Positions 36,201 through 39,200 of a stretch of DNA of 64,000 nt are shown piece by piece. Within the stretch, counting starts at the first letter, position 1. Each line of letters opens with the position of its first letter. The position numbers are program-made. Where the stretch lies: assembly GCF_055900595.2 (NCBI RefSeq), contig NZ_CM148325.1. One strand, written 5' to 3'.

Positions 36201-39200
36201 TGGTTATTACCGGCGTGCTCTTTTTTGCCTTCCGTAACGTGCAATATGCCCATGCAACGATGTTCATCACACTTTTGGTGCTACTTTGTTTTAACTTGCT
36301 GGGTGAAGGTTTTGAAGTGGCGTTACCTCGCGTAATCGATACGCTGATTGGTTGTGCCATTGCGTGGGCGGCGGTGAGCTACATCTGGCCTGACTGGAAG
36401 TTTCGCAATCTGCCGCGCATGCTCGAACGTGCCACCGAGGCCAACTGTCGCTATCTCGATGCCATACTGGAGCAATACCATCAGGGGCGTGATAACCGTC
36501 TGGCGTATCGTATTGCCCGCCGCGATGCACACAACCGTGATGCTGAACTGGCGTCGGTGGTATCAAATATGTCCAGCGAGCCGAACGTTACCCCGCAAAT
36601 TCGCGAGGCCGCGTTTCGGTTGCTGTGCCTTAACCATACGTTTACCAGCTATATCTCAGCCCTCGGTGCTCACCGGGAGCAGTTAACTAATCCTGAAATT
36701 CTGGCGTTTCTTGATGACGCAGTTTGCTATGTTGATGACGCGCTACATCATCAACCTGCTGATGAAGAACGCGTCAATCAGGCATTAGCTGACCTGAAAC
36801 AGCGGATGCAGCAACTTGAACCACGGGCAGACAGCAAAGAACCTCTGGTCGTACAACAAGTCGGGTTATTGATTGCATTACTGCCAGAGATTGGTCGTCT
36901 GCAACGCCAGATTACTCAAGTTCCGCAGGAAACTCCTGTTTCGGCGTAAGAGAGTCAGCCCATTCTGCAAGCTCCTGGCGGCGTGCCACCGGGAGCGCAG
37001 CTTCATGAATGCCGATAATGGCCCCTTCAAGCATAAACAGAATCTTTTCTGTCACCAGACTGTTTTGCTGCCGCAGTCGCAACCAACACATTTTTGCCCC
37101 AAGTATACGTAACGCCCGTACATCCTTAATCCCCACCTCCCCGAGTATCGCTTCCAGATGAAAAGACATATTGGGCAAATCTTTCAGTCTTTCCCGGGTA
37201 TTGCGCGTGCTTTTCTCTTTCAGCGCTGCATCGAGAGAATATTTCGACAGACGCACCAGCTTCAGTTGATTTCGCCATAGACTTTCATCAACCCGATAGT
37301 AATTGAGGGTAACGGATCGGCCACACTTTTTATATGTCAGCCAGACAGGCGGATGTTTTACACAGTACTGTGCACTTTGCTCACAAGCCCGAAGATACAA
37401 CTCACCATCAGAAACCATCGCAAACACCGTGTCGTCAACGGTCAGGCTGTAACTACCAAACAATGATCGGTATTCAATTGTGCCCAACGTTGCCAGGTAT
37501 TCTTGTGATTTATAGATCCGCTTATAGGAGAGGCTTTTCATAAAATTCCTTTTAAAATCATAACATAAAAGAATGATTCACATTAACGGATCCGTTAACT
37601 ACGAAAATAGGCAACTTATTCTTAAGGGGCAAGATTAATTTATGTTTTCCCGTCACTAACGACAAAATTTGCGAGGCTCTTTCCGAAAATAGGGTTGATC
37701 TTTGTCGTCACTGGATGTACTGTACATCCATACAGTAACTCACAGGGGCTGGATTGATTATGTACACTTCAGGCTATGCACATCGTTCTTCGTCGTTCTC
37801 ATCCGCAGCAAGTAAAATTGCGCGTGTCTCTACGGAAAACACTACAGCCGGGCTTATCAGTGAAGTTGTCTATCGCGAAGATCAGCCCATGATGACGCAA
37901 CTTCTACTGTTGCCATTGTTACAGCAACTCGGTCAGCAATCGCGCTGGCAACTCTGGTTAACACCGCAACAAAAACTGAGTCGGGAATGGGTTCAGGCAT
38001 CTGGGCTACCCTTAACGAAAGTGATGCAGATTAGCCAGCTCTCCCCTTGCCACACTGTGGAGTCAATGGTTCGCGCTTTACGCACGGGCAATTACAGTGT
38101 GGTGATCGGTTGGTTGGCAGATGATTTGACTGAAGAAGAGCATGCTGAACTTGTTGATGCGGCAAATGAAGGTAACGCTATGGGGTTTATTATGCGTCCG
38201 GTAAGCGCATCCTCTCACGCAACGAGACAACTTTCCGGGCTAAAAATTCACTCTAATTTGTATCATTAAGTAAATTTAGGATTAATCCTGGAACTTTTTT
38301 TGTCGCCCAGCCAATGCTTTCAGTCGTGACTAATTTTCCTTGCAGAGGCTTGTCTGAAGCGGTTTCCGCGGTTTTCTTCTGTAAATTGTCGCTGACAAAA
38401 AAGATTAAACGTACCTTATACAAGACTTTTTTTTCATATGCCTGACGGAGTTCACACTTGTAAGTTTTCAACTACGTTGTAGACTTTACATCGCCAGGGG
38501 TGCTCGGCATAAGCCGAAGATATCGGTAGAGTTAATATTGAGCAGATCCCCCGGTGAAGGATTTAACCGTGTTATCTCGTTGGAGATATTCATGGCGTAT
38601 TTTGGATGATAACGAGGCGCAAAAAATGAAAAAGACAGCTATCGCGATTGCAGTGGCACTGGCTGGTTTCGCTACCGTAGCGCAGGCCGCTCCGAAAGAT
38701 AACACCTGGTACACTGGTGCTAAACTGGGCTGGTCCCAGTACCATGACACTGGTTTCATCAACAACAATGGTCCGACCCACGAAAACCAACTGGGTGCAG
38801 GTGCTTTTGGTGGTTACCAGGTTAACCCGTATGTTGGCTTTGAAATGGGTTACGACTGGTTAGGTCGTATGCCGTACAAAGGCGACAACATCAATGGCGC
38901 ATATAAAGCTCAGGGCGTTCAACTGACCGCCAAACTGGGTTACCCAATCACTGACGATCTGGACATCTACACTCGTCTGGGTGGTATGGTATGGCGTGCA
39001 GACACCAAGGCTAACGTACCTGGTGGCGCATCCTTTAAAGACCACGATACCGGTGTTTCTCCGGTCTTCGCTGGCGGTGTTGAGTACGCGATCACTCCTG
39101 AAATCGCTACCCGTCTGGAATACCAGTGGACCAACAACATCGGTGACGCACACACCATCGGTACTCGTCCGGACAACGGCCTGCTGAGCCTGGGTGTTTC

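What the first reader, a model, noticed from the sequence alone, without database searches (positions are those of the whole stretch)
37583..37598. Perfect 16-bp palindrome in the sxy (tfoX) upstream/leader region
ttaacggatccgttaa is a perfect palindrome located 42-57 nt upstream of the sxy start codon on the template side. sxy expression is known to be tightly controlled through its promoter and leader; a perfect palindrome here could be a dimeric regulator site or a leader hairpin. It contains a GGATCC core, but the natural genomic context argues against a cloning scar.
Basis: seen in the sequence. Interest (0 to 1): 0.3.

Follow-up and report, generated by a model that had tools for sequence, protein, structure and literature searches.

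The report
Conserved palindrome over the sxy start site
A perfect 16-base palindrome sits on the transcription start of sxy, the E. coli competence regulator, and is conserved across enteric bacteria, so it looks more like a docking site for an unidentified DNA-binding protein than an RNA hairpin, though nothing has been shown to bind it.

Summary
TTAACGGATCCGTTAA lies at 37583-37598, 42-57 nt upstream of the sxy ATG. It is natural: it occurs in 5,425 of 5,426 complete E. coli genomes. A perfect 16-bp palindrome is not rare by chance here (2 seen, about 1.2 expected in 64 kb). What makes it notable is conservation. A 14-bp core, TAnCGGA|TCCGnTA, is an island of conservation across about 14 enterobacterial genera, between variable flanks.

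Two public 5'-end datasets place the main sxy start at the first A of TTAAC (window 37596; 55-nt leader). The palindrome therefore spans -2 to +14, and only a 4-bp remnant (-1.6 kcal/mol) is transcribed. Folding energies are no better than shuffles, and no covariation supports any RNA structure. The leader-hairpin reading is not supported.

The conserved promoter is TTGCCC-17-TATTTT, with the known CRP-S site centred at -81.5. The palindrome occupies the classic position of a repressor operator. My best explanation, at confidence 0.4, is an operator for an unidentified dimeric protein that gates sxy transcription. No binder is known and no second site was found. This is a modest, testable lead.

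The parts
37583..37598 (.). Perfect 16-bp palindrome TTAACGGATCCGTTAA. It spans -2 to +14 of the main sxy promoter, with the dyad between +6 and +7, and contains a GATC (Dam) site at 37589-37592.
   Evidence: sequence. (TSS). (near-invariance in E. coli).
37584..37597 (.). Conserved 14-bp core, consensus TAnCGGA|TCCGnTA. GGAT is invariant in the 16-genus alignment. Arm positions 1 and 4 are degenerate on both arms.
   Evidence: Alignments. Per-column information content.
37596..37596 (-). Main sxy transcription start (A; K-12 NC_000913.3 1,021,083), giving a 55-nt 5' UTR.
   Evidence: Cappable-seq lists U00096.2 1020306 (+) with RRS 58.6 and log2 enrichment 5.05. The coordinate offset of 777 was established from 65 TSSs, 94% of which are purines at +1 with that offset. 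SMRT-Cappable-seq lists b0959 with a TSS at 1021082, which I read as 0-based because its helD entry is also one below the Cappable-seq position.
37604..37609 (-). -10 hexamer TATTTT (-13..-8), in the invariant block CCTAT(T/G)TT.
   Evidence: The same promoter, TTGCCC-17-TATTTT, is predicted for sxy in Shimada 2014, PMC3946193.
37627..37632 (-). -35 hexamer TTGCCC, with a 17-bp spacer; CTTGC is invariant.
37667..37688 (-). Known CRP-S site: proximal half TGCGA, distal half TTCCG. Its centre at 37677.5 corresponds to -81.5.
   Evidence: Sequence. Description of the sxy CRP-S half-sites and class I-like, AR1-dependent activation in PMC6728893. Conservation.
37550..37550 (-). Minor second TSS (A; K-12 1,021,129; RRS 3.4), 7 nt downstream of TATGAT (37557-37562), giving a 9-nt leader.
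36912..37541 (-). sxy (tfoX) coding sequence, 209 aa.
   Evidence: (RefSeq annotation: 'CRP-S regulon transcriptional coactivator Sxy').

Best explanation
The palindrome is a DNA-level operator that overlaps the transcription start (-2 to +14) of the CRP-S/Sxy-dependent sxy promoter. A dimeric sequence-specific DNA-binding protein, not yet identified, would recognise two inverted TAnCGGA half-sites. By sitting on the start site it would block open-complex formation or promoter escape, and so set the threshold for Sxy's positive autoregulation. Shown: the palindrome, its conservation, the position of the TSS, the -10, the -35 and the CRP-S site, and the lack of support for an RNA structure. Inferred: that a protein binds, that it is a dimer, and that it represses.
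For: (1) Position. The main TSS is at 37596 in two independent datasets, so the dyad lies at +6/+7, which from general knowledge is the classic location of repressor operators such as lacO1. (2) Phylogenetic footprint. The 14-bp core is an island of conservation (information 1.1-2.0 bits at 12 of its 14 positions; the right-arm position-4 base is 0.5) between variable flanks (0.2-0.9 bits, apart from one conserved T at 37601). It matches the strength of the known -10, -35 and CRP-S blocks across 16 genus-level sequences. (3) The information profile is roughly mirror-symmetric: low at arm positions 1 and 4, high at 2, 3 and 5-8 (Pearson r = 0.76 over 8 positions). (4) Arm position 4 varies on both arms without covarying. 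That fits an uncontacted base in a protein site, not a base pair in a stem. (5) The outermost pair changes T..A to C..G together in the Enterobacter/Lelliottia group, restoring a perfect 16-mer in Enterobacter. That pair includes -2, which is not transcribed if the TSS is conserved. (6) RNA alternatives fail their tests. (7) Biological fit. sxy is described as barely expressed, and no natural inducing condition is known (PMC3330819; PMC6728893). Yet RNA polymerase holoenzyme alone selects this spacer, and the promoter fires in glucose minimal medium.
Against: No protein is known to bind here. The exact sequence is absent from the searchable literature. The only TF reported in this spacer, RcdA, has a different box, TTGTnnACA. 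Dyad symmetry is no higher than the column composition predicts: 82.6% observed against 82.2% in shuffles. Symmetry is therefore not demonstrably selected. The left arm and centre (TAACGGATC) are better conserved than the right arm. The palindrome is degenerate in Pseudescherichia (3/8 dyad pairs), Kosakonia cowanii, ENNIH3 and several Citrobacter. The Spearman correlation of arm profiles is not significant. No second copy was found in the 64-kb window, and no second enterobacterial locus appeared in a metagenome scan. The promoter is measurably active in vivo (RRS 58.6), so any repression is incomplete under that condition.
Confidence: 0.4

Rival explanations
1. Promoter-intrinsic element. 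The conserved TAACGGATC is the initially transcribed sequence, and it affects start-site choice, promoter escape or pausing. Alternatively, its central GATC makes initiation sensitive to Dam methylation. On this reading the palindromy of the flanks is incidental.
For: The left arm and centre, which include +1 to +8, are the best conserved part. GGAT is invariant in 16 genera, and the right arm is weaker. The spacing to the -10 is fixed to within 1 bp. GATC is retained in 15 of 16 genus-level sequences. Symmetry is not above the compositional expectation.
Against: Conservation continues to +13, beyond what start-site selection needs. The right arm still carries 1.7-1.8 bits at three positions, mirroring the left. 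GATC is lost in two Citrobacter species and in Pseudescherichia while the neighbouring bases are kept. I found no literature linking sxy and Dam.
Confidence: 0.2
2. The block is conserved for some other reason, or merely by slow divergence of a short, tightly packed regulatory spacer. The perfect palindrome in Escherichia is then a coincidence built around the self-complementary GGATCC.
For: About one perfect 16-bp palindrome is expected per 64 kb by chance. The whole sxy-sulA spacer is highly conserved, with 76-84% mean column identity. Dyad pairing equals the shuffled expectation. Perfect 16-mers occur only in Escherichia and Enterobacter.
Against: The island is flanked on both sides by mostly variable columns across 16 genera. 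That argues for purifying selection on this block specifically. Within E. coli, the polymorphisms found fall in the immediate flanks, not in the 16 bp.
Confidence: 0.25
3. RNA-level element in the sxy leader. One form is the 4-bp 5'-terminal hairpin (AACG-GAUC-CGUU), which could protect the mRNA 5' end. A second is GGAUCCGUU pairing with codons 7-9 (AGCGGAUCU) to enclose the ribosome-binding site, as in the H. influenzae sxy leader. A third is an ANGGA motif for CsrA acting together with the GGA of the Shine-Dalgarno sequence.
For: Sinha and Redfield reported a TSS 115 nt upstream and an Mfold stem-loop 'very similar' to those of H. influenzae and V. cholerae (PMC3330819). The MFE folds do pair the leader GGAUCCGUU with the coding AGCGGAUCU. 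C-to-U changes at one stem position keep G-U pairing in 6 sequences. GGA is invariant in the 16-genus set.
Against: The main TSS cuts the palindrome, and no Cappable-seq TSS exists at the -115 position. The remnant hairpin is -1.6 kcal/mol, and every leader fold is within shuffle expectation. The alifold energy is about 0 with 0 compensatory pairs. Pair counts for the hairpin and the long-range helix do not exceed the controls. In 11 of 24 sequences the middle of the stem is mismatched. There is no Rfam family. From my memory of the abstract of Jaskolska and Gerdes 2015, which is not held here, no evidence was found for translational control of E. coli sxy.
Confidence: 0.12

Closest known systems
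Repressor operators that overlap the transcription start, such as lacO1 for LacI, or the LexA box on the neighbouring sulA promoter at window 37720-37739
   Same: A short dyad-symmetric DNA element lies on or just downstream of +1 of a sigma-70 promoter that also has an upstream class I-type CRP site. It is conserved as a block across genera.
   Different: No cognate protein is known. The sequence matches no operator motif I could recall. Symmetry is imperfect outside Escherichia and Enterobacter. There is no evidence of repression.
H. influenzae sxy 5' UTR secondary structure (Cameron et al. 2008, PMC2248739) and the V. cholerae tfoX leader
   Same: The gene family is the same. A leader segment is complementary to early coding sequence in the predicted MFE folds.
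   Different: Here the palindrome is cut by the TSS. The folds are no more stable than shuffles, and there is no covariation.
[quoted passage not shown] 2019, PMC6728893)
   Same: It is a conserved cis-element of the same promoter, and part of the same autoregulatory circuit.
   Different: The CRP-S site is a separate element 80 bp upstream (37667-37688) with TGCGA-N6-TTCCG half-sites. The palindrome has no CRP-like half-site.

Membership tests
Dimeric-repressor operator overlapping a TSS | Dyad-symmetric sequence | tested here: met
   Perfect 8+8 palindrome in Escherichia and Enterobacter; 5-7 of 8 dyad pairs in most other genera.
Dimeric-repressor operator overlapping a TSS | Overlaps the core promoter or +1 | tested here: met
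   The TSS is at 37596, so the element spans -2..+14.
Dimeric-repressor operator overlapping a TSS | Symmetry itself under selection (mirror-symmetric conservation, symmetric substitutions) | tested here: inconclusive
   The information profile is roughly symmetric (Pearson 0.76, Spearman 0.41 and not significant). There is one paired change of the outer bases. Overall dyad pairing equals the shuffled controls.
Dimeric-repressor operator overlapping a TSS | A cognate DNA-binding protein and an effect on transcription | not testable with these tools
   The sequence is absent from the literature. RcdA binds this spacer but through a different box.
sxy/tfoX leader regulatory stem-loop | Both arms are transcribed | tested here: not met
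   +1 is the third base of the palindrome. The alternative -115 start is not seen in Cappable-seq.
sxy/tfoX leader regulatory stem-loop | Structure more stable than chance, with pairs supported by covariation | tested here: not met
   z-scores range from -1.2 to +0.3. Alifold gives -0.04 kcal/mol with 0 compensatory pairs. Pair counts equal the controls.
Intrinsic terminator / attenuator | GC-rich stem followed by a U tract | tested here: not met
   No terminator-like site in 37500-37800. The palindrome is followed by TGTGAAT.
CRP / CRP-S site | TGTGA or TGCGA half-sites 6 bp apart | tested here: not met
   The palindrome contains no such half-site. The real CRP-S site is at 37667-37688.
RcdA box | TTGTnnACA | tested here: not met
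   The motif comes from PMC3535384 and is absent from 37583-37598.
Any Rfam RNA family | Covariance-model match | tested here: not met
   Only two sub-threshold chance hits to eukaryotic families in 37300-37900.
Cloning scar / BamHI linker | Absent from natural isolates | tested here: not met
   Present in 5,425 of 5,426 complete E. coli genomes and in about 14 other genera.
CsrA binding site pair | ANGGA presented in a hairpin loop, plus a second GGA at the Shine-Dalgarno sequence | tested here: inconclusive
   ACGGA at +2..+6 and AAGGA in the SD are both present. The hairpin is only 4 bp, and the fit to the consensus is poor. That consensus was recalled from memory and not tested.

The most novel reading that the evidence does not exclude
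The palindrome is the operator of a still-unidentified repressor that holds the sxy autoactivation loop off in E. coli, Salmonella and relatives. Finding its binder would reveal the missing natural signal for competence-gene induction in these species.
Probability: 0.3. Interest if true: 0.6.

Novelty: new member of a known kind. Interest (0 to 1): 0.35.

Why it matters
E. coli carries a complete, Sxy-inducible DNA-uptake regulon, yet no natural condition is known that switches sxy on (PMC3330819, PMC6728893). Known control comprises the CRP-S autoactivation site and, from my memory of the literature, Lon proteolysis. A conserved operator-like element exactly on the start site would be a concrete handle for finding a negative regulator, by pull-down or by a derepression screen. 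That would make the question of what induces competence genes in enteric bacteria directly testable. If the element proves inert or purely promoter-intrinsic, the finding is just a refined map of the sxy promoter.

Tried and rejected
- **Leader hairpin and long-range leader-coding helix.** Folding, RNAalifold and explicit pair counts give no support.
- **Rfam.** No match.
- **Terminator and strong-promoter scans.** Nothing found.
- **Small ORFs over the palindrome.** There is a 21-aa ORF at 37573-37638 (+) and a 35-aa ORF at 37558-37665 (-). I rejected both. The variable columns fall on non-synonymous codon positions, and indels next to the palindrome break the frames between genera.
- **RcdA.** It binds the sulA/sxy region in genomic SELEX, but through a different motif.
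- **The reported TSS 115 nt upstream.** It maps to a G at 37656, in a poorly conserved stretch. It would put the CRP-S site at -21.5, and it is absent from Cappable-seq.
- **Search for further copies.** None within 3 mismatches looked convincing in the window. A metagenome scan for VTAACGGATCCGTTAB returned 120+ hits. The recurrent contexts I read looked coding and came from unrelated organisms, and only two were Enterobacter-type sxy loci. This gives no evidence for a regulon.
- **Literature search for the sequence, and for sxy with Dam/GATC.** Empty.
- **Papers and supplements not held.** Jaskolska and Gerdes 2015, Sinha 2009 and Thomason 2015 were unavailable. The supplements of Conway 2014, Adams 2021 and a Salmonella Cappable-seq study had no sxy entry.
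- **Known E. coli TF motifs.** I matched the half-site against motifs from memory only and found nothing convincing. This is not a database test.

Full report
**Observation**

Window 37583-37598 reads TTAACGGATCCGTTAA, a perfect 16-bp palindrome that does not extend further. The locus is the E. coli yccS / sxy / sulA / ompA region. The sxy CDS is 36912-37541 on the minus strand, and sulA and ompA lie on the plus strand.

A palindrome of this size is not rare by chance. The window has two perfect palindromes of 16 bp or more, against 1.2 expected from Markov-1 simulations. The second is the ompA terminator.

It is not an artefact. The 30-mer around it is present in 5,425 of 5,426 complete E. 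coli genomes and identical in 5,243. Of the 181 single-mismatch genomes, 171 carry a change at 37599, immediately outside the palindrome. In the most divergent strain, both changes flank an intact 16-mer.

**Conservation**

I collected sxy loci from 21 genome contigs. Eleven more came through Sxy homologues and their encoding contigs. Two came from a metagenome scan. In every genome-derived locus whose flanks were retrieved, sxy sits between sulA and yccS.

Alignments show a densely conserved sxy-sulA spacer. The conserved blocks match known or predictable elements:
- the LexA box and -35 of sulA;
- the CRP-S site (sense TTTCGGAAAGAGCCTCGCAAAT);
- ATCTTGCC;
- AAGTTGCCTAT(T/G)TTC;
- the palindrome;
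- TGATTT;
- the Shine-Dalgarno sequence.

The palindrome block is an island. In 16 genus-level sequences, twelve of the fourteen core positions score 1.1-2.0 bits. The right-arm position-4 base (37586) scores 0.5. The flanking columns score 0.2-0.9, apart from one conserved T at 37601.

The consensus is TAnCGGA|TCCGnTA. GGAT is invariant in that 16-genus set, although two Citrobacter species in the wider set have GGAG. Arm positions 1 and 4 are degenerate on both arms.

Perfect 16-mers occur in Escherichia (TTAAC...GTTAA) and Enterobacter (CTAAC...GTTAG). Salmonella, E. fergusonii, Leclercia, Yokenella and Phytobacter keep the perfect 14-bp core. Citrobacter, Lelliottia and Kosakonia have 4-7 of 8 dyad pairs, and Pseudescherichia only 3.

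**Where transcription starts**

This is the key result. The Cappable-seq supplement of Ettwiller et al. 2016 covers MG1655 in M9-glucose at mid-log phase. It lists plus-strand TSSs at U00096.2 1,020,306 (RRS 58.6, log2 enrichment 5.05) and 1,020,352 (RRS 3.4). There are none between 1,019,721 and 1,020,306.

I fixed the coordinate offset to NC_000913.3 empirically. With +777, 94% of 65 neighbouring TSSs fall on a purine. With +776 or +778, only 32% or 43% do.

The main start is therefore K-12 1,021,083, which is window 37596, the first A of TTAAC. SMRT-Cappable-seq independently lists the sxy (b0959) operon from 1,021,082. I read that coordinate as 0-based, because its helD entry is likewise one below the Cappable-seq position.

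This start lies 7 nt downstream of TATTTT (37604-37609). TTGCCC (37627-37632) sits 17 bp further upstream. Shimada et al. 2014 predicted the same promoter for sxy from RNA-polymerase genomic SELEX.

The CRP-S site has its TGCGA half proximal and its TTCCG half distal, as described by Sondberg et al. 2019. It is centred at 37677.5, which is -81.5. That fits their genetic evidence for a class I-like, AR1-dependent mechanism.

The palindrome thus spans -2 to +14, with its dyad at +6/+7.

Sinha and Redfield (2012) stated that transcription starts at a G 115 bp upstream of the ATG. A G does lie there, at 37656. But it sits in a poorly conserved stretch and would place the CRP-S site at -21.5. It has no Cappable-seq signal.

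**RNA readings**

From the real +1, only AACGGAUCCGUUAA is transcribed. It folds into a 4-bp stem of -1.6 kcal/mol (z = -0.4). The 55-nt leader and the leader plus 57 nt of coding sequence fold no better than shuffles, with z = +0.3 and +0.2. The same holds for the hypothetical 115-nt leader.

The MFE folds pair the leader GGAUCCGUU with codons 7-9, AGCGGAUCU. This recalls the H. influenzae sxy leader. But RNAalifold on 24 sequences gives -0.04 kcal/mol with no compensatory pair. Explicit counts for both the hairpin (82.6% paired against 82.2% in shuffles) and the long-range helix (82.4% against 84.3%) do not exceed the controls.

In 11 of 24 sequences the middle of the hairpin stem is mismatched. 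No Rfam family matches, and there is no terminator-like site. The leader-hairpin interpretation is therefore not supported.

**Best explanation**

The best explanation is an operator on the start site. The supporting evidence is:
- the position of the element on +1;
- the block-like footprint;
- a roughly mirror-symmetric information profile (Pearson 0.76 over 8 positions);
- independent rather than covarying degeneracy at arm position 4;
- a paired T..A to C..G change of the outermost bases in the Enterobacter/Lelliottia group, one of which (-2) is not transcribed.

It also fits the biology. sxy is barely expressed and no natural inducing condition is known. Yet the promoter is recognised by holoenzyme alone and fires in glucose medium.

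The evidence against it is substantial:
- No binder is known.
- The sequence is absent from the searchable literature.
- RcdA, which binds this spacer, uses TTGTnnACA.
- Symmetry is not above the compositional expectation.
- The left arm and centre are better conserved than the right arm.
- Several genera have a degenerate palindrome.
- No second site was found.

I put this explanation at 0.4. The rivals are:
- a promoter-intrinsic or Dam-GATC role for the initially transcribed TAACGGATC (0.2);
- incidental palindromy in a conserved block (0.25);
- an RNA-level role, as a 5'-terminal mini-hairpin, leader-coding pairing or CsrA site (0.12).

**Comparison with known systems**

The element works like an operator that overlaps +1, but membership cannot be claimed without a protein. 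It is not a member of the sxy/tfoX leader stem-loop class, because defining features were tested and not met. It is also not a CRP or CRP-S site, an RcdA box, a terminator, an Rfam family or a cloning scar.

**Novelty and interest**

The element is not described in anything I could search. Sinha and Redfield did mention unspecified 'regions of strong base pairing' upstream of E. coli sxy.

It is a candidate new member of a familiar kind of element. Its interest is modest (0.35), but it bears on a real open question about what switches sxy on. If a repressor binds here (about 0.3), it would give a direct route to the unknown signal that induces competence genes in enteric bacteria.

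Noticed in passing
window 37550 (TSS) and 37557-37562 (TATGAT): A minor Cappable-seq start (K-12 1,021,129; RRS 3.4) lies 7 nt after a near-consensus -10. It gives an sxy mRNA with only a 9-nt leader. TGATTT is invariant across genera, but the TA of the hexamer is not.
   Followed up: partly
window 37585-37593 and 37514-37522 (minus strand): The leader GGAUCCGUU is complementary to sxy codons 7-9 (AGCGGAUCU). The two pair in every MFE fold and enclose the ribosome-binding site, which is reminiscent of the H. influenzae sxy leader. There is no covariation and no excess stability.
   Followed up: yes
window 37656: The published statement that sxy transcription starts at a G 115 bp upstream of the ATG (PMC3330819) is not matched by any Cappable-seq TSS. 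It would put the CRP-S site at -21.5.
   Followed up: yes
window 37596: The sxy promoter gives a fairly strong primary 5' end (RRS 58.6) in glucose minimal medium, where cAMP should be low, although sxy is described as almost silent. This is unexplained. Possible causes are short transcripts, Lon turnover of the protein, or leaky basal initiation.
   Followed up: no
window 37569-37587 (minus strand): GTTAATGTGAATCATTCTT matches the 19-bp Fur-box consensus at 14 of 19 positions and abuts the palindrome. There are five such matches in the 64-kb window, so the evidence is weak. It is only partly conserved outside Escherichia, Salmonella and Citrobacter.
   Followed up: partly
window 39694-39719: A 26-bp perfect palindrome, AAAAACCCCGCAGCTGCGGGGTTTTT, lies just after ompA. 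It looks like a bidirectional intrinsic terminator.
   Followed up: no
window 36912-36949: The convergent genes sxy and yccS overlap by 38 bp at their 3' ends. The same overlap appears in the K-12 annotation (1,021,730-1,021,767).
   Followed up: no
window 37604-37611: The -10 region is invariant as CCTAT(T/G)TT, with a C just upstream of the hexamer. From general knowledge this feature is often associated with sigma-S promoters.
   Followed up: no
L021 (NZ_VLXZ01000190.1, 276 bp): A 276-bp contig in an Alkalicoccobacillus porphyridii assembly is 99% identical to E. coli sxy at the protein level. It is probably E. coli contamination of that assembly.
   Followed up: no
sulA/sxy spacer, window about 37542-37760: Genomic SELEX and footprinting place the TetR-family regulator RcdA in the sulA/sxy region (PMC3535384), and an RNA-polymerase SELEX table flags H-NS in this spacer (PMC3946193). 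Neither explains the palindrome.
   Followed up: partly
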